IMG/VR virus record: IMGVR_UViG_2695420421_000005
Reading direction: 5' to 3' (one strand)
DNA: 30,231 nt
Source: a virus
Taxonomy: Duplodnaviria; Heunggongvirae; Uroviricota; Caudoviricetes
The notes under the pieces are model-generated. The model saw only the letters and a program-made list of their open reading frames with translations, was not told the DNA's origin and ran no database searches. The position numbers were made by a program, and so were the translations under genes. Below are positions 2,747-16,920 of this stretch, piece after piece (positions within the stretch are counted from its first letter, which is position 1; every line of letters begins with the position of its first letter).

Positions 2747-3048
2747 TGCTACCACCAGAGTTCCTACGCTCTATATGGCGGTAGCCCAGACGGGGGTAGG
2801 AATACCGGTAAACGAAGAAACCGGCCAGCTAAAAGCTGCCCCATCTGAGCCACCATAAATTTGGTGTACGCAGATTTTACACACAAAAAAACACGCAGGC
2901 GCGTGTTGTGCGCTTCATTTACTCGGGTTCCTACGCCCGGCTACGGGATTTACCGTAGCGGAGTAACTTTACCGTCAAAACGACGCGCACGTCAATAATT
3001 TGCAAAGGCATTTTACCCCGTGACCAGTCACGGGGACAGGTGTTTTTA
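2747..3048 (+). ncRNA. Candidate structured noncoding RNA or regulatory leader (strand and ends uncertain)
   Basis: ~300 bp without a credible ORF; several GC-rich hairpins (ACACGC-AGGC-GCGTGT 2891-2906; 7-bp stem 2940-2946/2953-2959); GTTCCTACGC repeated at 2760-2769 and 2927-2936; possible -35 TTGAAC 2714-2719 and -10 TTTAAT 2735-2740 (15-bp spacer, suboptimal); ends at a hairpin plus T-run. Confidence 0.25.
3016..3048 (+). terminator. Hairpin CCCCGTGA-CCAG-TCACGGGG followed by a T-run; possible terminator or protein-binding palindrome
   Basis: 8-bp GC-rich stem 3016-3023/3028-3035 with TTTTT at 3042-3046; the palindrome core recurs inverted at 13753-13768. Confidence 0.4.
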
Positions 3049-4140: not shown

Positions 4141-4332
4141 TTACTCCCCGTTCACCGAAAAATCACGATAGAAACGTTTCCACATACGATAAGTCTGCGC
4201 GAGTTGTTCACCACGAAACATCGCCTTCCTGGCCTTCATGTTTTCCTTGTGAGACTTTCGATCTATGAACCAAAACCATTGCTGGAACACACAAAGCAAG
4301 AGACACAAAGATAATATCCACTGATTACCCAT
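4141..4332 (-). CDS. Possible small membrane protein (63 aa) translationally coupled to repA
   Basis: ATG at 4332 overlaps the repA stop; hydrophobic ILSLCLLLCVFQQWFWFI followed by a basic tail; short, so uncertain. Confidence 0.3.
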   Translation of the reverse strand: MGNQWILSLCLLLCVFQQWFWFIDRKSHKENMKARKAMFRGEQLAQTYRMWKRFYRDFSVNGE

Positions 4333-7300
4333 AGAAAGCGCCCTGCTCTTCGTAGCTGCATGAGCTATTCCCGGTAATGTATTCTCGTAACCGCCGCAGT
4401 TCATTGCTGGACAAGTGATCCATGAACTCTGTGAGGTACAGAGATGCAAACGTCATAGCTATGCTGGTTGATGACCATGATGACATAGTGGCCAGCTCCT
4501 CACCGGAAAGCGCACTCATCGCCCAGGACTCAGGAACAGCCACCGGCAATACGGCCAAAGCCTCAGAAATTACTGAATGAGGGGCGTTTTGAACCTGCTC
4601 GTTTGTGGATCGCGTTTTATCATCCATATATATATTGAGATCCAAATCGCGATCCATTTCGATGGCTGTCTTCTCGGCTTTACGCGTTTTTAGGGTTAGG
4701 CCATCTTTCTGACGCTGAACAAGAATATCCAGCATAAATGCCGCTGATTCAGGCTCAACAAAACGCAAGGTTGGACGCTTATCGCCGTCTCTGCCGCGAC
4801 GTTTACCTGTTTTAAGGCCAAGAGAGTCGCAAATGTTTTTAAACAACGCTTCCGGCACTTTAGGCTTCCCTTTTGGCGTCATAAAACCACCAATGTGCAG
4901 AACGTTATTCAACAGGTCACGGCGTTCGGCTGTCATGAGATTATCTCGAGCGAATTTGAGACGCTCCTGAGTCGCCTCGCCGGTCATAGTCTCAGGGTTG
5001 ATACCGCAGTCGATAAAGTACTGCCGGAGAGTTGCTGATTTAAGCGCATAGAAACCGCGCGCCCCGACTTCAACAGTAGGAGTAGCTTTTACCTTGTGAT
5101 CGATTATTCCAGGGAATTTAGTTTTAAAGACATCATCAGCCTGCTCGCGAGTCATCGCGGTCACTACAAAATATTGCCACTGTCCCGCCTGACGGTATGC
5201 GTAGGTAAAATTGATGGCTGCTTCTTCCCGGTCGTAACGACGAGCTGTTACCTCATCTAAAAGCATTGTTTCATAGCGGCGAACTTTGTCTCGAGCACCA
5301 TCGAAATAGAATTTCAGTGTGCCTTCTTCAACCGGTAGTTTCAGTTCGTTTTCAATATCCCAGCGGACAAGTTTTGCCTGTTCTTCAAGCGTCAGCGCGC
5401 GTTTTTTTAGCAGTTCTTCACGCTCTGATTCTTGTGGAGTTTCTGTATTGAGGTGCAGATCCAGTGTCTGTTCCCACACAATATCCCGCGCTTCTTTACG
5501 CAGATCTTTACCGATATCATTCGCAGCATAATCGGTGCCCAGCGGCGATACCTTATAACCGTCGCTGTGCATGATGCAGATCATGTTGCTGGCGTAGTCG
5601 TTACGCGCAGTCGCTTCAATTGCGGCTGCTTTAATTTTCATCCTGGTAAAGTCGGTATTGGCCACCCCCATTGATATACGGTCGCCATCGAAAATGACAT
5701 CCGTCAGTTCACCGTTCATACCTGCGGTAGCAAGCAATGCCTGGGCGAATGCTCGTTCTATTTTTTGCGGGTCAGTTTCACGTTTTGCACGAGCTTTATC
5801 AAAGCCGATAATAAATTCTTTTGCTGTACGGTCGCGGCGTAGCATTTGCACTGCGTCGCTGGGTACAACTTCACCACAGAACATGCCGAAATGACGGTCA
5901 AAATGTTTTTGCTCAATCGACACGCCGGATGAAATAGACGGGCTATAAATCAGGCCGTCGTATTTTTTGACCATCTTTTTCGGTTGATTGGTAAATGCTT
6001 CAACTTCTGGCTCTGGTTTGTTTTTCTGGTTTACACACAGAAATTTCTTACCAGGAAAATGCATTCTCAGGGTGGCTGTCACATCTTCTGCAAAGGTGGA
6101 GCTGTCGGTGGCCAACATGATTTTTTCGCCATCCGATACAGCTTTCACCACCTCGGTCATGATGCGATCTTTTTCTGTATAAAAAACCCGGATTGGCTCA
6201 CCTGTTTCGCGGTTGCGAACATCAACAGGTAATTCAATTACGTGGATCTGCAGCCATGCCGGTAAACCTAGTTCTTCACGGCGTTTCATAGCCAGTTCAG
6301 CCAGGTCAACCAGCAGATCGTTCGCATCAGCATCCACCATGATTGGGTGTTGTTCCGTTCTGGCCAGCGCGTCAATTAGCGTATTGAATACAGCCACCGG
6401 GTTTTCCATAGCCCGACCGGAAAGAACGGCACGTAGCCCTTGTGTGGCCTCGTCAAAGCCAAAATAGTCGTGCTGGCGCATCAACGGTTGCCAGCAGTTT
6501 TTAACAATCGAGTTTATGCAGATGGTCAGTTTACTGGCGTATGGAGCCATTTCCTGATAGCCAGGGTCCTGATAGTGCAGGATATCGGCTTTTACACCTT
6601 TTCCTTCAGTCATCATTTCCCACAGGCCACCAATAAGGGAAACACGGTGAGCTACAGAGATACCGCGTTCTGAGCTATGCATTAACGGTCGTAACAATCC
6701 AGTAGATTTGCCGGAACCCATACCAGCACGAACGATGACGATCCCCTGTAGTGATTGCACGTACTTCAGGACGTCATCGGTCATTACCGAAGTTTCAAAA
6801 CGCTTATAGGTGATATGTTGAGGGCGTTTATTGGGATCAGTTATGCGTTCGCTGAAAGAGCGCGGAGCCTGGGCAATACGGCACTTTTTATTCAGGCGAC
6901 GGGCAATGTGGTCTTTTACCGTAGCGCGATAGATATTTTCCAGCCCCATTTCACGCAGAACGATGCAGAACATGTTAAACAAATCTGACGGACTGTTAGG
7001 AACCGGACAGGTTAGCATGCCAATATCCACCGCTCTCAGCAGCTCTTTGGCAAAAGTACGACGGTTATCCCGCTTAATTGTCTTCAGGCGGTTGAGCGTC
7101 AGAGATAGCAAATCAGTGCCGGTTTTCAGGCGGTTTGCTGTTGCAAATAGTTGACGTGCTGTTTCACGAAGTCCACGTAGTTTGTGCAGGTCGTTGAAGT
7201 CACTGCACTCCATTTGCGGATCGTCTTCAAAAGTTGGATAGACGCAGCGGACATCGTTGAATTTCGATAAGATTTCATAGCCAGTCCGCAGGCCGGTATT

Positions 7301-8320
7301 CCCTTTTCCTTCTGTGGCTGATTTCCGGTCATTATCCAGTGCGCAGGTGATTTTTGCCGCCGGGTACATGTTTACCAGTTGTTCCACAACATGAACCATG
7401 TTGTTAGCGGATACAGCGACAACCACAGCGTCAAAGCGTTTATCTTTTTTCGTGGCAAGCCAGATGGATGCACCAGTAGCAAAACCTTCTGTAACAGCGA
7501 TGTTTTGCGCCCCTTTCAGCTCACCGATAACAAAGCAGGCACCGACGAAATCGCCGCTGGTTACTGCGCTGGTCTGGTATTTCCCACCTTGTTTGTCGAT
7601 TCGCTGCCAACCCACAATACGACCATCGTAACGACCGTCCAGGTGAGCCAGAGGGATAGCCATATATGTGGTTGGCCCCCGGTTCCATTTCGCACTGTCG
7701 TGACTGGTCACGCGACGCACATCACATGAACTAAAAACGTCACGAATACCTTTTTTAATCGCATATGGCCATGAGCCGTCTTCTGCAGGAGCATGTTCCC
7801 ACGCGCTGTGGAATGCCAGCCATCCCAGCAAACGTTCATGGTCCATTTGGTTGTTTTTCAGGTCATTAATTCGTTTTTGTTCTTCACGGCGACGACGTGC
7901 TTCGGCCTGACGTTTTATTCTTGCCCGTTCTTCTTCCGGTTGTGCGACCACGGTCGCATTATTCCGTTGTTGCTCACGGCGATATTCAGAAAACAGGAAG
8001 GAGAAACCGCTCCATGAGCCAGCATCGCTGCCTTTATGGACGAAGTTAATGAACGGGTAATCAATCCCTTTGCTGTGTTCCAGCCGGGAGTAAATTTCTA
8101 CGCGTCCTTTGAGGCTCTTTTCGAGAGCTTCTGGAGATGTTTTATTGTATGAAGAGTAACGCTCAACACCCCCGCGAGGGTTGAGTTGGATGTTGTCGGA
8201 ACAGGCAGACCAGTTGATACCAGCCATCTGTGCCAGCTCGGTTAGTTCATCCCGTGCTGCTTCAATTAGCGAGAACGGATCGCTGCCAAAGCGATCCGCA
8301 TAGAAATCGTTTAATGTCAT
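4325..8320 (-). CDS. repA: Replication protein RepA (primase-helicase), 1331 aa
   Basis: Size and position match N15 RepA (~1320 aa); Walker A motif GMGSGKST in the helicase region; sits between the telN side and the cB immunity region as in N15. Confidence 0.93.
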   Translation of the reverse strand: MTLNDFYADRFGSDPFSLIEAARDELTELAQMAGINWSACSDNIQLNPRGGVERYSSYNKTSPEALEKSLKGRVEIYSRLEHSKGIDYPFINFVHKGSDAGSWSGFSFLFSEYRREQQRNNATVVAQPEEERARIKRQAEARRRREEQKRINDLKNNQMDHERLLGWLAFHSAWEHAPAEDGSWPYAIKKGIRDVFSSCDVRRVTSHDSAKWNRGPTTYMAIPLAHLDGRYDGRIVGWQRIDKQGGKYQTSAVTSGDFVGACFVIGELKGAQNIAVTEGFATGASIWLATKKDKRFDAVVVAVSANNMVHVVEQLVNMYPAAKITCALDNDRKSATEGKGNTGLRTGYEILSKFNDVRCVYPTFEDDPQMECSDFNDLHKLRGLRETARQLFATANRLKTGTDLLSLTLNRLKTIKRDNRRTFAKELLRAVDIGMLTCPVPNSPSDLFNMFCIVLREMGLENIYRATVKDHIARRLNKKCRIAQAPRSFSERITDPNKRPQHITYKRFETSVMTDDVLKYVQSLQGIVIVRAGMGSGKSTGLLRPLMHSSERGISVAHRVSLIGGLWEMMTEGKGVKADILHYQDPGYQEMAPYASKLTICINSIVKNCWQPLMRQHDYFGFDEATQGLRAVLSGRAMENPVAVFNTLIDALARTEQHPIMVDADANDLLVDLAELAMKRREELGLPAWLQIHVIELPVDVRNRETGEPIRVFYTEKDRIMTEVVKAVSDGEKIMLATDSSTFAEDVTATLRMHFPGKKFLCVNQKNKPEPEVEAFTNQPKKMVKKYDGLIYSPSISSGVSIEQKHFDRHFGMFCGEVVPSDAVQMLRRDRTAKEFIIGFDKARAKRETDPQKIERAFAQALLATAGMNGELTDVIFDGDRISMGVANTDFTRMKIKAAAIEATARNDYASNMICIMHSDGYKVSPLGTDYAANDIGKDLRKEARDIVWEQTLDLHLNTETPQESEREELLKKRALTLEEQAKLVRWDIENELKLPVEEGTLKFYFDGARDKVRRYETMLLDEVTARRYDREEAAINFTYAYRQAGQWQYFVVTAMTREQADDVFKTKFPGIIDHKVKATPTVEVGARGFYALKSATLRQYFIDCGINPETMTGEATQERLKFARDNLMTAERRDLLNNVLHIGGFMTPKGKPKVPEALFKNICDSLGLKTGKRRGRDGDKRPTLRFVEPESAAFMLDILVQRQKDGLTLKTRKAEKTAIEMDRDLDLNIYMDDKTRSTNEQVQNAPHSVISEALAVLPVAVPESWAMSALSGEELATMSSWSSTSIAMTFASLYLTEFMDHLSSNELRRLREYITGNSSCSYEEQGAFYG
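7943..7958. repeat. sopC-like centromere-type inverted repeat TGCGACC-AC-GGTCGCA (copy 1, inside repA coding sequence)
   Basis: 7-bp inverted arms with 2-bp spacer, same architecture as the F sopC core TGGGACC-AC-GGTCCCA; five copies in this window. Confidence 0.5.
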
Positions 8321-8565: not shown

Positions 8566-9162
8566 TCATCTACCCTCAACCATGAATGATTTGATCGTTC
8601 CGACTATTTGGTGAACAAATTCAAGATCGCTTTTCCTGAAGATGGCGCGTTGTGAATTTGTTCCGTCCAGATAGTAATTTTCATCATCAAAACGGGCCAG
8701 GCGCTGGATGGTGATATTTCCTGCAGTATCACGAACCAGAACATCCTCGCCGGGGACCAGTTCCAGCGCAGAATCGACCAGGAGAAAATCGCCAGGCTGA
8801 TAGTTTCCCTGCGCCAGATTGCTGATAGTTAACGCATAAACAGTATTGCGCTGGCTGATGAATGGCAGGAATCGCTCAGTATTTGGAACCTGTCCTGGCT
8901 TCCACTCTTCATCAGGTCCACTTTCAGTTGTGCCAATAACAGGAATGCGATCAGGGTCATATTCTGTCCCATACAGCACCCAATGCACTGGCTTGCGTAA
9001 GCATTTAGCCAGGGCAATACCTATCTCCAGTGACGGCATTACGTCGCCACGTTCTAAGTTTTGGACGCCTGCAATAGAGATATCGACAGCCTCAGCAACT
9101 TCTCGCAACGTCAGCTTCATCTCTAAACGGCGTGCTTTCAGTCGTTCGCCTCGTGTTTTCAT
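8566..9162 (-). CDS. cB: Prophage repressor CB (CI-like: N-terminal HTH plus C-terminal S24/LexA-like domain), 198 aa
   Basis: N-terminal HTH (LTLREVAEAVDISIAGVQNLERG) and C-terminal peptidase S24-like fold region; divergent from cro across an operator-containing spacer. Confidence 0.9.
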   Translation of the reverse strand: MKTRGERLKARRLEMKLTLREVAEAVDISIAGVQNLERGDVMPSLEIGIALAKCLRKPVHWVLYGTEYDPDRIPVIGTTESGPDEEWKPGQVPNTERFLPFISQRNTVYALTISNLAQGNYQPGDFLLVDSALELVPGEDVLVRDTAGNITIQRLARFDDENYYLDGTNSQRAIFRKSDLEFVHQIVGTIKSFMVEGR

Positions 9163-9253: not shown

Positions 9254-9475
9254 ATGAAACCAGAAGAACTTATTCGCCACTTTGGCAGTGTAGAAAAAGC
9301 AGCGGCAGGGGTAGGTGTAACACCCGGAGCTGTTTACCAATGGTTAACCGCTGGAGAGATTCCTTCATTGCGGCAAAGCGATATTGAAGTTCGTACTGCT
9401 TATAAGCTGAAGAGTGACTTTACAACTCGGCGGGTAAAGCAGTCGATTAAGGAGAGTCGTAAGCGTGGAGCTTGA
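9254..9475 (+). CDS. cro: Cro-like HTH regulator (73 aa from the ATG at 9254)
   Basis: Small basic HTH protein (HFGSVEKAAAGVGVTPGAVYQWL) divergent from the repressor gene; the ORF-track start at 9227 is TTG, the internal ATG is more plausible. Confidence 0.8.
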   Translation: MKPEELIRHFGSVEKAAAGVGVTPGAVYQWLTAGEIPSLRQSDIEVRTAYKLKSDFTTRRVKQSIKESRKRGA

Positions 9476-10175
9476 GTATATACGCAGCTGCGTCTCTACG
9501 GCATTGGCTGATGTTCATTATCGCCAGCGTGGCATTCTGGAGGTCCAGCTTGAGCAGATGCGTCTCGGTAGATCAGGACGGTTTAACAATAAACCAGTCC
9601 GGTCAATCAGTGTGGGGGATGATAACTCATACGAAGTGTCCGTTCCTGCTGAGCCGGTTAGATTCCACCAGGGGAAAACATTTAAACAATCATCAATGTT
9701 GCTCACTGATATTGATTTTCAGAGCGCCAGCTGGCGCAGGGCTATTGGTCAGTTGAATAACGAGGAATCAGCCTGGCTTTATTATTGCTACGGATGCAAG
9801 CCTGATTACAACAATGATGTGATTGTTTGTCAGTGGTTATGGCTTGATTTTCTGGTTGCTCATTCGGGGGGCGGCTTTAAAAAAATGAAGGCCTCCACGA
9901 AAAAAGCCATGCGGAAATTGATTTATTACGCGGCACAGCAGGTTAAATCAGAACTTACGTGTGCTGAGGCAGTTGATGAGAGAGAACAGGACAGGCATCT
10001 GAGTCTTCTACTGAATATATCTATTGATAGCTGGAGACAAGATTATAAAGAACGCTGGCTTTTAATTAAGTCGCGATGTCTGAGCTTAAATCGAACTGCA
10101 TTATTAAATGCGGCGGAGAAGCGCAGTGAAATCATCAAACGCCATCGGGCAGGAAGTGCCATTCTGCCTTTGTAA
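9465..10175 (+). CDS. Hypothetical protein (236 aa), positional analogue of the Q antiterminator in a cB-cro-Q arrangement
   Basis: GTG start overlapping the cro end with AAGGAGAG upstream; product assignment is by position only, no motif confirmed. Confidence 0.65.
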   Translation: MELEYIRSCVSTALADVHYRQRGILEVQLEQMRLGRSGRFNNKPVRSISVGDDNSYEVSVPAEPVRFHQGKTFKQSSMLLTDIDFQSASWRRAIGQLNNEESAWLYYCYGCKPDYNNDVIVCQWLWLDFLVAHSGGGFKKMKASTKKAMRKLIYYAAQQVKSELTCAEAVDEREQDRHLSLLLNISIDSWRQDYKERWLLIKSRCLSLNRTALLNAAEKRSEIIKRHRAGSAILPL

Positions 10176-12889: not shown

Positions 12890-13416
12890 TGCATAAAGCA
12901 GTAGCCGGTGAGTTTCAGAAGGAAGTCGATAATACTACCGTTCTATTGGACGATATTTTAAGCATTCTCGCGCTGCTTGAGGCTGGCGATTGGTCAGAAC
13001 ATTGCACTAAAACAGAGCTAGGCGGTCGGCTTGAAAGAGAGATTACACGACTTATTGGTGATGCGCAGGAAGCCACTGTCACTGGCTATGAGTTAATCGC
13101 TGAAGCCTGGCGTTTGATGGATGGACAAGACCCTAAAACCAGCGATTGGCATAGCAAGGCGTCGAAGTATTTAAATTCCAATATTGTAGAAAAAGTTGAT
13201 GATGACCGTATTGAGGCCGTTAAGGCTGTGTTGCGTAGGTTGGCTGGCAACTCTCCGGTAACTCCGGATGGTCATGTTCAGTTTTCTGTTTCACTTCCTG
13301 CAGCGTTTGGTGGAGATAAATATTTTATTGATGGTGTATTTCAACCTTTGAGATATGAGCGTGACTGTGAAAAAGCGGTTGTGGCCGCTGGCGGTGTAGT
13401 TAATTGGGTTAAGTAA
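12886..13416 (+). CDS. Hypothetical protein (176 aa) sharing the AGN(Y/S)PVTPDG segment with the upstream DUF551 gene
   Basis: ATGA-coupled ORF; ~32-nt near-identical segment at 13245-13276 versus 12428-12459. Confidence 0.7.
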   Translation: MMHKAVAGEFQKEVDNTTVLLDDILSILALLEAGDWSEHCTKTELGGRLEREITRLIGDAQEATVTGYELIAEAWRLMDGQDPKTSDWHSKASKYLNSNIVEKVDDDRIEAVKAVLRRLAGNSPVTPDGHVQFSVSLPAAFGGDKYFIDGVFQPLRYERDCEKAVVAAGGVVNWVK

Positions 13417-13431
13417 TTTTCAGGAGGATTT

Positions 13432-13758
13432 ATGGCGCTGACACCGGCAGAACGGCAAAGGAGACGCAGGGAACGGTTGAAGAAGGAAGGCACATCAAGA
13501 CGGGACTGGATTTTGGAGCCTGACGAGTTACGTATGTTGGGGGAAATTTGTGTATTGCGTAGACCAGGGCGAGTTCCATATTCGGAGAACGAAGTCATTG
13601 GTTTGCTGATCAGGAAAAACTATAAGGAGCTGCAGAAGCAGCTATCTACTACTTGCCCGCGATGTGGTCAAAAAATGCCTGTTTCAGAATGCATTTTTGA
13701 TGGCGAAGGGTCATGCCACCTTACAACCACGAGGCTGAAACTTGCGCTCAAAGCGTGA
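13432..13758 (+). CDS. Hypothetical protein (108 aa), arginine-rich N-terminus and Cys-containing C-terminus
   Basis: CAGGAGG RBS 6 nt upstream of ATG; MALTPAERQRRRRERLKKEG basic region. Confidence 0.7.
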   Translation: MALTPAERQRRRRERLKKEGTSRRDWILEPDELRMLGEICVLRRPGRVPYSENEVIGLLIRKNYKELQKQLSTTCPRCGQKMPVSECIFDGEGSCHLTTTRLKLALKA

Positions 13759-13768
13759 CTGGTCACGG
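13753..13768. repeat. Palindrome GCGTGACTGGTCACGG, inverted copy of the 3018-3033 palindrome
   Basis: 15 of 16 positions are the reverse complement of the site at 3018-3033; overlaps the stop codon of the upstream gene and precedes the RBS of the next. Confidence 0.5.
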
Positions 13769-13776
13769 AGGGATAA

Positions 13777-14019
13777 ATGGATAAAAAGGCATTGCTTTTT
13801 GAAATGATACGAAAACGGAGCGAAAAGAGCTTTTCTGATGGTGGTGATGGGTTTGTTTTCGCTTCTATGCTTGCTTTTGATGTTGGGTTAAATAGCAGAA
13901 TTGTTAAAAGGATGCTTGATTCTGCTGTCCGTGATGGGCTTTTGGAAGTGGTTGGGCGAGGAGTAGGAAGGGAACATAAGTATCGGACTACAAAGATATT
14001 TAACCAGTTAATCTATTGA
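13777..14019 (+). CDS. Hypothetical protein (80 aa)
   Basis: GGAGGG RBS upstream of ATG; no family recognised. Confidence 0.65.
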   Translation: MDKKALLFEMIRKRSEKSFSDGGDGFVFASMLAFDVGLNSRIVKRMLDSAVRDGLLEVVGRGVGREHKYRTTKIFNQLIY

Positions 14020-14045
14020 AAGTTGGCTATAAAATTTGAGTTTTA

Positions 14046-14065
14046 CCCTGTAATTTTATACAGTA
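14046..14065. promoter_or_regulatory. LexA (SOS) box CCCTGTAATTTTATACAGTA
   Basis: CTGT-N8-ACAG with an AT-rich spacer and ACAGTA end, matching the E. coli LexA consensus; overlaps a possible -10 (TACAGT) 17 bp after TTGAGT; preceded by GGCTATAAAATTT also found at the cB/cro operator. Confidence 0.6.
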
Positions 14066-14087
14066 TCAAATAACCTTTTTTAATTAA

Positions 14088-14306
14088 ATGGTATTAGATT
14101 CAATGACTGAAGCACCTGTATCAACTCTTGAAGAACTCGGATCAAACCTAAAAGACATCGACGCCGTTTTGGATCTGGTTAGCGTTGCTCTGGCTTCTCC
14201 AGAAGCCAGCTTGCATCTTGGCGAGATTTCACGACTTGTTAGTATGTCGCGGGAGATTGCTCAGAATTGCCAACAAGTTATTGCTGTTGAGTGTTTACAT
14301 CATTGA
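14088..14306 (+). CDS. Small acidic protein (72 aa; alternative start at 14103), candidate SOS-regulated antirepressor
   Basis: First ORF downstream of the LexA box; product assignment is inference by analogy with the N15 LexA-controlled antirepressor. Confidence 0.5.
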   Translation: MVLDSMTEAPVSTLEELGSNLKDIDAVLDLVSVALASPEASLHLGEISRLVSMSREIAQNCQQVIAVECLHH

Positions 14307-14349
14307 TATACACCCCGCCCTTCTGGACGGGGTAGCGAAAAGGGTCTAA

Positions 14350-14637
14350 TCAATAGACGGCATTAATATTAATCGTTGCACCGCATGCTTGGGCATATTT
14401 TGATAAAGTTTTCATGCTTGCCCCTAAAGGATTGCTTTCCAGGCGGCTGATAGCTGACGGGCGCAATCCCATTCGTTCAGCCAGAGCTGACTTCGTTAAA
14501 CCTGCTCTTTCCCTCATTTCGTATAACATTTCGACCATCTCCAGCTCTTTATCGGCCTCTTCATATCCTTTGATGGCTTCTGGAGTGTTGAGAAGTTTTT
14601 CTTTTACTTCGTTAAACGGGATGCCTTTCGCTTTCAT
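14350..14637 (-). CDS. HTH XRE-family antitoxin (HigA-like), 95 aa
   Basis: HTH segment LTKSALAERMGLRPSAISRLE; start overlaps the toxin stop by 1 nt; toxin-first gene order typical of higBA. Confidence 0.85.
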   Translation of the reverse strand: MKAKGIPFNEVKEKLLNTPEAIKGYEEADKELEMVEMLYEMRERAGLTKSALAERMGLRPSAISRLESNPLGASMKTLSKYAQACGATININAVY

Positions 14638-14948
14638 CAGTTCATCTCCTTCAGGCGAGTTCTGGCGATTTCGATAGCCTTCACCGGTGTTTTCTGTGTC
14701 TTTTTTACAAATGCATGCAATAGATAAATTTCGTTACCAGTCGCGTAGGCGTACAGCGTTCTTGCGATGTTTTTATCCCCTACTCGTAGTTCAAAAAGCC
14801 CTCCACCTATTACACGGCTATGGGGCATCTTCAGTTTGTTGCCTTCTTTCTCCAGTCGCTCAATTAATCTGGTCATGCGACCTCGCAAATCATCTGGTAG
14901 TTCAAGCAGTTCATCCAGTGCTGCAGGGTGGGTTATCACGTTAAACAT
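14637..14948 (-). CDS. RelE/ParE-superfamily toxin (HigB/Gp49-like), 103 aa
   Basis: Conserved IGGGLFELRVGDKNIARTLYAY core typical of HigB/Gp49-like toxins; GGAGG 9 nt upstream of ATG. Confidence 0.85.
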   Translation of the reverse strand: MFNVITHPAALDELLELPDDLRGRMTRLIERLEKEGNKLKMPHSRVIGGGLFELRVGDKNIARTLYAYATGNEIYLLHAFVKKTQKTPVKAIEIARTRLKEMN

Positions 14949-15006
14949 ATTATAGCCTCCATATCCATAAAATACACCAAAACAAGAAAACAGCGCAAAT
15001 TAAAAA

Positions 15007-15024
15007 TTTCACTAAAAAGTGAAA
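15007..15024. promoter_or_regulatory. Palindrome TTTCACT-AAAA-AGTGAAA upstream of the toxin-antitoxin operon (candidate autoregulatory operator)
   Basis: Perfect 7-bp inverted arms ~60 bp upstream of the toxin start on the transcribed side. Confidence 0.45.
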
Positions 15025-15113
15025 AATAACACTGGATGTGTTCGTTTGGCAGAGTTACAGTTCGTGTCATTGAGGGGCAATAACCAACTAACTATATGAA
15101 TTTGGAGGATATT

Positions 15114-15335
15114 ATGAATTATCAAGGTAACGAAAAAATGCGCGACGACGTTGCGGAGATAGCTAACGAACTGTATGAGTTGTGGCAGAAGGTTGAACGT
15201 TTCGAAAAGGAATATGGTTTCAACAGTACCAACCTAGCAGACCGACTGGCTGGTCGCTTAGTTGGGACTATGGGGCCAAAACTGGCTGAGTTGAACCGCT
15301 TTATGGCTGATGTTGATTTCCAGTTTCAAGATTGA
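15114..15335 (+). CDS. Hypothetical protein (73 aa from ATG 15114)
   Basis: GGAGG 6 nt upstream of the internal ATG; no family recognised. Confidence 0.6.
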   Translation: MNYQGNEKMRDDVAEIANELYELWQKVERFEKEYGFNSTNLADRLAGRLVGTMGPKLAELNRFMADVDFQFQD

Positions 15336-15348
15336 TTAGAGAGGCGTT

Positions 15349-15576
15349 ATGAATATTAATGAAATTCGTGGAAATATGACTGAAGCGGCCCTGAGTGTGG
15401 AATGTGTTATGCGTGGATACCCACGCATTTCCCTGAAAGAGTTAAGCGAAGCCTGTTTTTTGAGTCAAGCTGCCGTTGAATTTATCATCGAACAGATGAT
15501 CTGTTTTGGGGTTGCAAAGCGTAGCGGGTCTGGTCGATATTCTTTGACCGATGAATATAAGCAGGCAACTTTCTAA
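15349..15576 (+). CDS. Hypothetical protein (75 aa), possible winged-helix
   Basis: GAGAGG RBS upstream; no family confirmed. Confidence 0.65.
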   Translation: MNINEIRGNMTEAALSVECVMRGYPRISLKELSEACFLSQAAVEFIIEQMICFGVAKRSGSGRYSLTDEYKQATF

Positions 15577-15582
15577 AAACTG

Positions 15583-15598
15583 TGCGACCACGGTCGCA
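15583..15598. repeat. sopC-like inverted repeat TGCGACC-AC-GGTCGCA (copy 3, intergenic)
   Basis: Same motif, 7 nt after the stop of the upstream gene. Confidence 0.5.
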
Positions 15599-15685
15599 CA
15601 GCACAAAAACGAAAAAGCTTGGCAAAATGACGGTTTTTAGTTATTGTTTTGTTAAGTTGGGTTTTTTGTACCCAACAGCCAACAA

Positions 15686-15709
15686 GCCGCCTTTATGGCG
15701 GTTTTTTTG
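15686..15709 (+). terminator. Intrinsic terminator (short GC stem plus T7)
   Basis: GCCGCC-TTTAT-GGCGG followed by TTTTTTT. Confidence 0.5.
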
Positions 15710-15795: not shown

Positions 15796-15809
15796 GCGAT
15801 GCGCATCGC
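15796..15809. promoter_or_regulatory. Perfect 14-bp palindrome GCGATGCGCATCGC ~35 bp upstream of the methyltransferase start
   Basis: Self-complementary sequence read directly; function unknown. Confidence 0.4.
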
Positions 15810-15843
15810 CGGGTTAGCTTACCCAGGCAAAAAAATAATAGCT

Positions 15844-16920
15844 ATGTTCAAAACCACTAATATTCATGGCGCACAACTCGTTTGCGCAGATTCTCTGCAA
15901 TTTATCAAAACCATCCCTGATAACTCGGTCAATTTGATTGCAACAGACCCACCATACTTCGGCGTAAAGGCTAACGCATGGGATAACCAGTGGGATAGCG
16001 ATGCTGACTTTTTGGGGTGGATTGACGAATTTTTGGCAGAATTTTGGCGGATATTGGCCCCTAATGGCAGCCTGTATATGTTTACCGGCTCTCGCCTTGC
16101 GTCAAAAATTGAATTATTAACTCGCGACCGTTTCAATGTTCTGAACCATATTATTTGGGCTAAACCCAGTGGTATGTGGCGCGGTTGTCATAAAGAAAGT
16201 TTAAGGGCTTATTTTCCTGCTACTGAAAGAATATTATTTGCAGAGCATTACGGCGCGTCAGGTTATGCTAAAGGTCAGTCAGGTTATGCTTCAAAATGTG
16301 CAGATTTAAGAAAAAATATTTTTTCTCCACTAATTGATGCTTTTTCGCTGGCTCGCCGTCAGTTAGATATATCAGCCGCAGACATTAATTCAGCGACAGG
16401 AAAGCAGATGTGTTCACACTGGTTTTCTTATTCGCAGTGGCGGCTTCCATCATTAATTGATTTTAATAAACTATGCGAATTATTTCGCAGGAAGGCAGAT
16501 TCACTCGGTGTCCCGTGTCCATATCCTTTTAATGTTGATTATTCAGAACATGAAAAGCGTTATAGCGATCTGAAATTGCATTATGAGGAAGTAAAGAAGC
16601 AGTATGATGATTTGAAGGCTCAGTATGAAAATTTACGCCGTCCATTTCATGTTACTGCTGATGTACCTTATACCGATGTATGGGAGTTTCCTCCTGTGCA
16701 ATATTATCCTGGCAAGCACCCATGTGAAAAACCTGCAGCGATGATGGAACATATTATAAAGAGTAGTTCACGCCCCGGAGATATCGTTGCCGATTTCTTT
16801 ATGGGATCAGGCTCAACTATTAAAGCTGCGCTGAAGTTAGGACGTCAGGCAATAGGTATTGAGATTGAGGGCGAACGTTATCTTCAGACAGTTGATGAAG
16901 TGAAAAAGTTATTTGAGTAA
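15844..16920 (+). CDS. DNA methyltransferase, beta-class N6-adenine/N4-cytosine type (358 aa)
   Basis: N-terminal DPPY motif (LIATDPPYFGV) and C-terminal AdoMet-binding FFMGSGST in beta-class order; the ORF-track start at 15799 runs through the palindrome, the ATG at 15844 is more likely. Confidence 0.85.
   Translation: MFKTTNIHGAQLVCADSLQFIKTIPDNSVNLIATDPPYFGVKANAWDNQWDSDADFLGWIDEFLAEFWRILAPNGSLYMFTGSRLASKIELLTRDRFNVLNHIIWAKPSGMWRGCHKESLRAYFPATERILFAEHYGASGYAKGQSGYASKCADLRKNIFSPLIDAFSLARRQLDISAADINSATGKQMCSHWFSYSQWRLPSLIDFNKLCELFRRKADSLGVPCPYPFNVDYSEHEKRYSDLKLHYEEVKKQYDDLKAQYENLRRPFHVTADVPYTDVWEFPPVQYYPGKHPCEKPAAMMEHIIKSSSRPGDIVADFFMGSGSTIKAALKLGRQAIGIEIEGERYLQTVDEVKKLFE

What the first reader, a model, noticed from the sequence alone, without database searches (positions are those of the whole stretch)
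14016..14306. Canonical LexA box in front of a small acidic ORF: candidate SOS-controlled antirepressor
CCCTGTAATTTTATACAGTA (14046-14065) is a near-consensus SOS box overlapping a plausible promoter, followed by a 72-aa ORF. N15 induction is known to depend on a LexA-regulated antirepressor rather than on RecA-mediated repressor cleavage, so this is probably the equivalent switch; the protein itself has no family I can name.
Basis: partly seen in the sequence, partly recalled or inferred. Interest (0 to 1): 0.65.

Follow-up and report, generated by a model that had tools for sequence, protein, structure and literature searches.

The report
SOS-controlled antirepressor gene of N15-like prophage
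This is the counterpart, in an N15-like linear plasmid prophage of E. coli, of the antC gene, a small protein kept silent by the host LexA repressor and released after DNA damage to switch off the phage repressor; the mechanism was described for phage N15 in 2007, so the finding is correct but ordinary.

Summary
CCCTGTAATTTTATACAGTA (14046-14065) is the only strong LexA box in the 30-kb window. It scores 19.3 bits on a matrix of E. coli SOS boxes; the next best site scores 9.9, and 0 of 300 simulated windows reach it. It overlaps a weak but conserved promoter and precedes a small acidic ORF.

The window is a Ravinvirus (N15-like telomere phage-plasmid). N15 carries the same box and a 52-57% identical, unannotated ORF at the same position, between genes 47 and 48. 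N15 has only two strong LexA boxes, and the other precedes a umuD-like gene. So this ORF must be antC, the LexA-repressed antirepressor of repressor CB (Mardanov and Ravin 2007).

Box plus ORF recur in all 8 close relatives and in 5 of 6 distant lineages. In PY54 the homologue is annotated as an antirepressor and follows a dinI homologue behind a LexA box. The window's CB lacks the Ser/Lys needed for self-cleavage.

- The real start is ATG 14103, giving 67 aa rather than 72.
- The protein does have a family: PHROG 6301, sister to PHROG 10889 "anti-repressor".

Nothing was tested experimentally here. Verdict: a new member of a known kind, of low interest.

The parts
14036..14041 (+). -35-like hexamer TTGAGT of the antC promoter
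   Evidence: By eye, 4 of 6 matches to TTGACA. TTTG is invariant in the 8-phage alignment. Not reported by the consensus scanner.
14046..14065 (.). LexA (SOS) box CCCTGTAATTTTATACAGTA, with a perfect CTGT-N8-ACAG core at 14048-14063
   Evidence: Only match in the window. Matrix score 19.3 bits against 9.9 for the next site, reached by 0 of 300 simulations. Conserved upstream of the homologous ORF in N15, YDC107_1, PhiR46_1, MStein-2023a, phiKO2 (left half ATGT), KpLi5 and NAR688, and in 5 of 6 distant lineages.
14059..14064 (+). -10-like hexamer TACAGT, lying inside the right half of the LexA box, 17 nt after the -35
   Evidence: Invariant in all 8 phages. The overlap with the box means bound LexA would occlude RNA polymerase (inference).
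14090..14093 (+). Weak Shine-Dalgarno-like GGTA, 9 nt before ATG 14103
   Evidence: GGTA is invariant in the 8-phage alignment, whereas the ATG it overlaps (14088) is not conserved as a start.
14103..14306 (+). antC-like gene: 67 aa, pI 4.5, 7.2 kDa, predicted two-helix hairpin with a conserved ASPEASLH loop
   Evidence: tblastn hit to the N15 ORF at 57% identity, E 2e-17. PHROG 6301 at E 4e-36 and PHROG 10889 'anti-repressor' at E 1e-6. Alignments A2 and A3. AlphaFold2 mean pLDDT 87, helices 4-30 and 39-66. Start codon chosen.
14312..14333 (.). GC-rich hairpin between antC and the convergent toxin-antitoxin operon; possible two-way terminator
   Evidence: Folds at -14.1 kcal/mol on the + strand (z -0.7) and -20.5 on the - strand (z -2.7). 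No T run, so not called by the terminator scan. N15 has a clearer hairpin at the same place.
8566..9162 (-). cB prophage repressor, the presumed target of the antirepressor
   Evidence: 78% identical to N15 CB (gene 38). HTH_3 domain plus a sub-threshold Peptidase_S24 match (21.3 bits, below the 23.3 cut-off). The catalytic Ser motif is missing and the catalytic Lys is replaced by Gln when aligned with LexA, lambda CI and UmuD.

Best explanation
The region is the antC module of an N15-like (Ravinvirus) linear plasmid prophage.

In a lysogen, host LexA binds the SOS box at 14046-14065. The box covers the spacer and the -10 element of a small stand-alone promoter, so the 67-aa gene at 14103-14306 stays silent. 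DNA damage activates RecA and LexA cleaves itself. The promoter then opens, and the small acidic helical-hairpin protein accumulates. It binds the prophage repressor CB (8566-9162, minus strand), which cannot cleave itself. CB leaves its operators, and the early genes, cro and Q are expressed, leading to lytic growth.

Shown here by computation:
- the box and its statistical support;
- its overlap with the conserved promoter elements;
- homology and synteny with the N15 ORF;
- conservation of the box-ORF pairing across the family;
- loss of the catalytic residues in CB.

Taken from the literature: N15 AntC binds and counteracts CB and is repressed by LexA.

Inferred: that the N15 ORF is antC (by elimination), and that the window's protein does the same job on its own CB.
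For: - The window is N15-like, 94% identical to Ravinvirus YDC107_1, with telN, repA, cB and Q.
- The box is a single outlier in the window.
- N15 has CCCTGTGTTTATATACAGTA followed by a homologous, unannotated ORF between gene 47 and gene 48.
- The whole N15 genome has only two strong boxes: this one (21.1 bits) and one before the umuD-like gene 26 (24.5 bits). The next site scores 9.5.
- Published work states that N15 induction depends on AntC, a LexA-controlled antirepressor acting on CB (PMC4488713; PMC3121763; PMC11652158).
- The N15 repressor was shown to be non-proteolytic (PMC10432266).
- The box, the -35 TTTG and the second ATG are invariant in 8 phages although the proteins are only about 50% identical.
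- Six distant relatives all lie in the same N15-like layout, and 5 of them have a 21-26 bit box 21-72 bp upstream as the only strong box in 3-12 kb.
- PY54 'antA' (annotated antirepressor, PHROG 10889) is homologous: hhalign probability 94%, E 1e-7. It follows a dinI homologue behind a 23.4-bit box.
- CB lacks the catalytic Ser and Lys.
Against: - I could not read the primary paper. The identity of the N15 ORF with antC rests on elimination and on my recollection that antC lies between genes 47 and 48.
- The promoter matches only 8 of 12 consensus positions.
- No source names any family member AntC; all are 'hypothetical protein'.
- Pfam, NCBIfam and fold searches give nothing specific.
- One distant lineage (P0047) has no E. 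coli-type LexA box.
- AntC alleles only 79% identical occur with the same CB protein. This is compatible with the model but was not predicted by it.
- The SOS-box matrix was built from boxes I recalled from memory.
Confidence: 0.85

Rival explanations
1. The gene is under LexA control, but its product is not an antirepressor of CB. It might have another damage-induced role, such as modulating RecA like DinI, blocking cell division, or countering a host defence.
For: - No direct functional data exist for this protein, and no Pfam or structural match points to a function.
- In PY54 the homologue is co-transcribed with a DinI homologue.
- The same CB protein occurs with AntC alleles only 79% identical.
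Against: - The N15 genome offers no other LexA-controlled candidate for the published antirepressor apart from a umuD-like gene.
- The sister PHROG is annotated anti-repressor.
- There is no DinI or other domain hit.
- Every family member found lies in an N15-like phage that carries a cB-type repressor gene.
Confidence: 0.08
2. The LexA box is real, but it acts mainly as a roadblock or modulator of read-through from the upstream early operon (genes 13432-14019). It is not the operator of a dedicated promoter, and the small ORF is simply the last early gene.
For: - The promoter is only an 8-of-12 match and the scanner does not call it.
- No terminator is seen between the upstream gene (stop at 14019) and the box.
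Against: - The -35 TTTG and the -10 TACAGT keep exact spacing and are invariant in 8 phages, while the surrounding intergenic sequence diverges.
- Distant relatives keep the box 21-72 bp before the ORF even though their upstream genes differ.
- The literature describes antC as a separate LexA-controlled gene (PMC4488713).
Confidence: 0.04
3. The box is a chance palindrome with no regulatory role.
For: The bare CTGT-N8-ACAG pattern appears at least once in 33 of 100 shuffled windows.
Against: - The full 20-mer score is reached in 0 of 300 simulations.
- The site is conserved at the same position in 8 close relatives and 5 distant ones.
Confidence: 0.02

Closest known systems
AntC of coliphage N15 (Mardanov and Ravin 2007, J Bacteriol 189:6333), the LexA-repressed antirepressor of repressor CB
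   Same: - Same genus of phage-plasmid and same genome position, after the gene 46/47 homologues and convergent with the gp48/gp49 toxin-antitoxin pair.
- Same type of LexA box overlapping the promoter.
- Homologous small acidic protein, 52-57% identical.
- Same kind of non-cleavable CB repressor, 78% identical.
   Different: - The allele is diverged: about half the residues differ from N15, and the last 10 or so residues are unrelated.
- The box spacer is AATTTTAT here and GTTTATAT in N15.
- The function is untested in this phage.
- The N15 RefSeq and GenBank records do not annotate the gene at all.
'AntA' antirepressor of Yersinia telomere phage PY54 (PHROG 10889)
   Same: - Detectable homology: hhalign probability 94%, with the shared SP(E/D)AS(L/I) loop motif.
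- Similar genome position, before a toxin-antitoxin gene and the methyltransferase.
- LexA-box control.
   Different: - It is 87 aa and is the second gene of a dinI-ant operon, so its LexA box lies before dinI.
- The window has no dinI homologue at this locus.
- It is unrelated to N15 AntA (gene 32) despite the name.
GfoA/GftA/FsoA antirepressors of Salmonella Gifsy and Fels-1 prophages (Lemire et al. 2011, PMC3121763)
   Same: The logic is the same: a small protein of about 70 aa under direct LexA control, encoded outside the immunity region, that binds a non-cleavable repressor without degrading it.
   Different: - No detectable sequence relationship. The Gifsy-2 ORF next to dinI, which I took to be gftA, gives hhalign probability 0.3% against the AntC profile and falls in a different PHROG (4847).
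- The Gifsy genes follow dinI, and these phages are integrated lambdoids.
Tum of coliphage 186
   Same: A LexA-controlled antirepressor that binds its cognate repressor (cited in PMC3121763).
   Different: Tum is 146 aa and its second half is DinI-like. The window protein is 67 aa with no DinI or other Pfam hit.

Membership tests
N15 AntC-type LexA-controlled antirepressor module | Protein homologous to the N15 antC product | tested here: met
   tblastn to N15 positions 39604-39807 gives 57% identity, E 2e-17. Both proteins hit PHROG 6301, at E 4e-36 and 1e-26. Caveat: the N15 ORF is equated with antC by elimination, because the primary paper was not readable.
N15 AntC-type LexA-controlled antirepressor module | Same genome position in an N15-like telomere phage, outside the immB and immA immunity regions | tested here: met
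   The gene order gp46-like, gp47-like, small ORF, convergent gp48/gp49 toxin-antitoxin pair, gp50, gp51, methylase is the same in the window, N15, phiKO2 and YDC107_1.
N15 AntC-type LexA-controlled antirepressor module | LexA operator overlapping the gene's own promoter | tested here: met
   The box at 14046-14065 scores 19.3 bits. It overlaps the conserved -10 TACAGT and the spacer. The promoter itself is only a weak consensus match.
N15 AntC-type LexA-controlled antirepressor module | LexA binds the site and represses transcription, with derepression after DNA damage | not testable with these tools
   This needs a gel-shift assay or reporter assays. Only reported for N15 in the literature.
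N15 AntC-type LexA-controlled antirepressor module | The product binds repressor CB and inactivates it | not testable with these tools
The monomer model is a two-helix hairpin.
N15 AntC-type LexA-controlled antirepressor module | The cognate repressor is not inactivated by RecA-stimulated self-cleavage | tested here: met
   By sequence only. The S24 match is below threshold. The Ser motif is absent and Lys is replaced by Gln in the window CB and in N15 CB. The N15 repressor was shown experimentally to be non-proteolytic (PMC10432266).
E. coli-type SOS box (LexA operator) | CTGT-N8-ACAG palindrome with an AT-rich spacer and a score within the range of known boxes | tested here: met
   The core is perfect and the spacer AATTTTAT is all A/T. 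The score is 19.3 bits, against a range of 12.9-26.1 and a median of 19.8 for 27 recalled E. coli boxes.
Gifsy GfoA/GftA antirepressor family | Sequence homology to GftA and position directly after a dinI homologue | tested here: not met
   hhalign probability is 0.3% against the Gifsy-2 ORF next to dinI, which falls in a different PHROG. The window has no dinI at this locus.
186 Tum family | Antirepressor of about 146 aa with a DinI-like C-terminal half | tested here: not met
   The protein is 67 aa and gives no DinI hit in Pfam at E up to 1.
ANT/KilAC or Bro-N type phage antirepressors (P22 Ant, P1 Ant1, N15 gene 30) | ANT, KilAC or Bro-N domains | tested here: not met
   No such Pfam hit appears at E up to 1. 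N15 gene 30, annotated 'anti-repressor Ant', lies elsewhere, in immA.

The most novel reading that the evidence does not exclude
The antC cassette (about 13925-14450) is a recombination-exchanged module. E. coli N15-like plasmids with one and the same CB protein carry AntC alleles only 79% identical, while the flanking DNA is about 100% identical. If the alleles differ in strength or target range, for example by acting on repressors of co-resident prophages as the Gifsy antirepressors do, or on a second target, then antC would be a tunable induction-threshold or cross-talk module rather than a fixed partner of CB.
Probability: 0.1. Interest if true: 0.45.

Novelty: new member of a known kind. 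Interest (0 to 1): 0.15.

Why it matters
The finding adds little new biology, because LexA-controlled antirepression of N15 has been known since 2007. It has three practical uses.

- **Annotation gap.** The gene is missing from the N15 reference record and is labelled 'hypothetical protein' in every E. coli and Klebsiella phage-plasmid examined. The family, including PHROG 6301 ('unknown function'), could be annotated as AntC-type antirepressor.
- **Family definition.** The comparative set assembled here defines a conserved core (L..L.D.DA.L..V......SPEASLH....RL..MSR....C) and the correct 67-aa start. It also links the family to PY54 'AntA'.
- **Clinical relevance.** These phage-plasmids occur in clinical E. 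coli and Klebsiella isolates. Their induction is predicted to respond to DNA-damaging antibiotics through this switch.

Tried and rejected
- **Primary paper.** Mardanov and Ravin 2007 (PMC1951935, PubMed 17586637) and the phiKO2 genome paper are not in the library. No held paper gives the antC coordinates.
- **Curated families.** Pfam and NCBIfam gave only noise for the small protein.
- **Source names.** Two large homology searches returned only 'hypothetical protein'.
- **Fold search.** Foldseek searches of the confident AlphaFold2 model against viral and PDB libraries gave only generic helical hairpins, with no E-value below 0.5. I consider a two-helix hairpin too simple for fold searching to be informative.
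- **Consensus scans.** The promoter and terminator scans found nothing in 13700-14700. The promoter assignment therefore rests on conservation.
- **Gifsy link.** Homology to the Gifsy antirepressors was tested and rejected.
- **PY54 AntA.** I checked whether it is related to N15 AntA (gene 32). It is not.
- **Selection.** I considered diversifying selection on antC. The window and YDC107_1 differ at 14 synonymous and 15 non-synonymous codons. The divergent patch also covers intergenic DNA and the ends of both neighbouring genes. This looks like an exchanged older allele rather than positive selection.
- **RNA families.** Rfam found no RNA family at the locus.

Full report
**What the window is.** The 30-kb window is an N15-like telomere phage-plasmid (genus Ravinvirus). 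It encodes:
- a protelomerase (213-2120);
- a 1331-aa RepA (4325-8320, minus strand);
- a CB-type repressor (8566-9162, minus strand);
- an antiterminator Q (9465-10175);
- then early genes, a methylase, lysis genes and the terminase and portal genes.

The region 13400-15400 is 94% identical to Escherichia phages YDC107_1 and PhiR46_1 and 77% identical to phiKO2. The 526-bp stretch 13925-14450, which holds the finding, occurs in 17 of 5426 complete E. coli genomes, always on plasmids of about 46 kb and never on chromosomes. It is 100% identical to plasmid CP088562.1.

**Checking the observation.** The sequence CCCTGTAATTTTATACAGTA is at 14046-14065, exactly as stated. Its core CTGT-N8-ACAG is the only one in the window. 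That bare pattern is not rare, since 33 of 100 shuffles have one.

I therefore scored all 20-mers with a matrix made from 27 E. coli SOS boxes. I recalled these from memory of the published lists, so the matrix is approximate.
- The site scores 19.3 bits, at the median of genuine boxes (19.8).
- The runner-up in the window scores 9.9.
- None of 300 simulated 30-kb sequences reaches 19.3.

TTGAGT (14036-14041), a 17-nt spacer and TACAGT (14059-14064) match 8 of 12 consensus positions, and the scanner does not call it.

**The ORF.** The mechanical ORF is 14088-14306, 72 aa. Comparison with relatives shows that its first ATG is not a conserved start:
- YDC107_1 and PhiR46_1 read ATG GTA TGA there;
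- phiKO2 and the Klebsiella phages have CTG or CGG;
- the second ATG (14103) and a GGTA nine bases upstream of it are invariant;
- PGAP calls the 67-aa form in three E. coli plasmids.

The gene is therefore 14103-14306: 67 aa, 7.2 kDa, pI 4.5. Variable columns among relatives are 35, 24 and 55 for codon positions 1, 2 and 3, the pattern of a real coding sequence.

**Relation to N15.** tblastn finds the protein in 13 phage records, all N15-like, from Escherichia, Klebsiella and Enterobacter. In N15 itself the match (57% identity, E 2e-17) falls at 39604-39807, where nothing is annotated. That stretch lies between gene 47 and the convergent genes 48 and 49. It is preceded by CCCTGTGTTTATATACAGTA.

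Scanning the whole N15 genome gives only two strong LexA boxes. One scores 24.5 bits and lies just before the umuD-like gene 26. The other is this one, at 21.1 bits. The third-best site scores 9.5.

The literature held in the library says:
- AntC is a LexA-controlled antirepressor (PMC3121763; PMC11652158);
- the N15 repressor is not cleaved after SOS induction (PMC10432266).

I could not open the primary paper. By elimination, the unannotated ORF behind N15's second LexA box must be antC. This agrees with my recollection that antC lies between genes 47 and 48.

**Conservation of the regulatory arrangement.** In an alignment of the intergenic region from eight phages, whose proteins are only about 50% identical to the window's, the invariant blocks are:
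- TTTG of the -35 element;
- TGT..TT.TATACAGTAT of the box, which includes the -10;
- GGTA;
- the ATG at 14103.

The rest of the spacer DNA has diverged. phiKO2 has one change in the left half-site (ATGT) and still scores 17.6 bits.

A profile search of 1.8 billion representative proteins found a narrow family: 10 representatives at E up to 0.001, six of them distant. All six distant members lie in N15-like contigs with the order repA, cB, cro, Q, early genes, small ORF, usually a convergent toxin-antitoxin pair, methylase and lysis genes. Five of the six have a 21-26 bit LexA box 21-72 bp before the ORF, as the only strong box in 3-12 kb. The sixth lineage (P0047) has none; it may come from a host with a different LexA motif.

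In Yersinia phage PY54 the homologue is the 87-aa 'antA' gene, annotated as an antirepressor. It is the founding type of PHROG 10889 (E 4e-39). Against the AntC profile it gives hhalign probability 94% and E 1e-7. It follows a dinI homologue that is preceded by GACTGTATACATATACAGTA, at 23.4 bits. The pairing of a LexA box with this small protein is thus a property of the whole family.

**The protein and its presumed target.** Pfam and NCBIfam give nothing. PHROG 6301 ('unknown function') matches at E 4e-36, and PHROG 10889 ('anti-repressor') at E 1e-6. AlphaFold2 with a 22-sequence alignment predicts a confident two-helix hairpin (mean pLDDT 87, helices 4-30 and 39-66) with the invariant ASPEASLH motif in the turn. 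Fold searches return only generic helical hairpins.

The window's CB is 78% identical to N15 CB. It has an HTH_3 domain and a sub-threshold S24-like C-terminal domain. Aligned with LexA, lambda CI and UmuD, the G-x-S-M catalytic serine motif is missing and the catalytic lysine is glutamine, in both the window CB and N15 CB. A repressor that cannot cleave itself needs an antirepressor to respond to SOS.

**Mechanism.** LexA bound to 14046-14065 would cover the -10 element and the spacer and block RNA polymerase. After DNA damage LexA is cleaved, and the 67-aa protein is made. It binds CB, and the early lytic promoters open.
- Established here by computation: the site, its overlap with the promoter, orthology and family-wide conservation.
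- Taken from the N15 literature: the binding of AntC to CB and repression by LexA.
- Inferred: transfer of these properties to this phage.

I put this at 0.85. The rivals are a LexA-controlled gene with another function (0.08), a roadblock on read-through rather than a dedicated promoter (0.04), and a chance palindrome (0.02).

**Comparison with other systems.** The logic is the same as for Gifsy GfoA/GftA and for 186 Tum, but there is no detectable homology. The Gifsy-2 ORF next to dinI gives hhalign probability 0.3% and belongs to PHROG 4847. Tum is twice the size and has a DinI-like half, for which there is no hit here. The N15 immA antirepressor system is a separate module, and it is also present in the window (C4 antisense RNA at 2774-2860).

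**One feature beyond the known picture.** Between the window and YDC107_1 the DNA is about 100% identical on both sides (13275-13925 and 14450-15700). It drops to 66-88% in 13925-14450, which covers the end of the upstream gene, the promoter, antC, the hairpin and the end of the antitoxin gene. E. coli plasmids that share one CB protein (WP_001495876.1; 99.5% identical to the window's CB) carry AntC alleles that are only 79% identical. The 15 amino-acid differences are mostly conservative and are matched by 14 synonymous codon differences. This looks like ordinary mosaic exchange of an older allele. It does leave open whether the alleles are functionally equivalent.

**Verdict.** This is a diverged ortholog of a system described in 2007, so it is a new member of a known kind and of low interest. 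Its main value is for annotation.

Noticed in passing
window 2774-2860 (-) and 2886-2959 (-): Rfam finds a C4 antisense RNA (73.6 bits) and an isrK Hfq-binding RNA (62.8 bits) next to each other, downstream of telN. This is probably the immA anti-immunity region of N15-like phages, so the window carries a second, RNA-controlled antirepressor system besides antC.
   Followed up: no
window 14350-14637 (-) and 14637-14948 (-): A convergent toxin-antitoxin pair lies directly downstream of antC: a Gp49/RelE-like toxin (PF05973, E 3e-29) and an HTH_3 antitoxin. In some distant relatives and in PY54 the same slot holds a HicA/HicB pair or a HicB-like gene instead, so the position is kept while the module is swapped.
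   Followed up: partly
window 13925-14450: This is a mosaic patch. It is 66-88% identical to YDC107_1, while both flanks are about 100% identical. The same CB protein occurs with AntC alleles only 79% identical in E. coli plasmids.
   Followed up: partly
L002 5495-5514 (phiKO2) and L009 17240-17259 (PY54): An identical LexA-like palindrome, CACTGTAAAAATAAACAGTG (20.3 bits), sits 8 nt inside the start of the DNA methyltransferase gene in two distantly related telomere phages. The window's methylase (15799-16920) has no such site.
   Followed up: no
L008 21658-21677 (N15): The strongest LexA box in N15 (TACTGTATAAAAAAACAGTT, 24.5 bits) lies 15 bp before gene 26, a UmuD-like protein. N15 therefore has two SOS-controlled genes. 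The corresponding part of the genome is outside the window.
   Followed up: no
L018/L019 6001-6213: One distant AntC-family lineage (P0047, from a metagenome) has no E. coli-type LexA box within 12 kb, although its genome layout is the same. Either the host has a different LexA motif or the gene is controlled differently.
   Followed up: no
L020 9955-10413 (-): An N15-like metagenomic contig encodes a protein with an AcrIF11 ADP-ribosyltransferase (anti-CRISPR) domain downstream of the methylase.
   Followed up: no
L011 6915-7172 (plasmid pAH01-1): In this close relative no gene is annotated between the gp46-like gene and antC, at the position of the window's 80-aa gp47-like ORF (13777-14019). 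I did not check whether that ORF is absent or merely not called there.
   Followed up: no
plasmid CP088562.1 (75.5 kb): The record that matches the window exactly is much longer than the usual 46 kb or so and holds two copies of the query region. This may reflect a duplication, a dimer or an assembly artefact.
   Followed up: no
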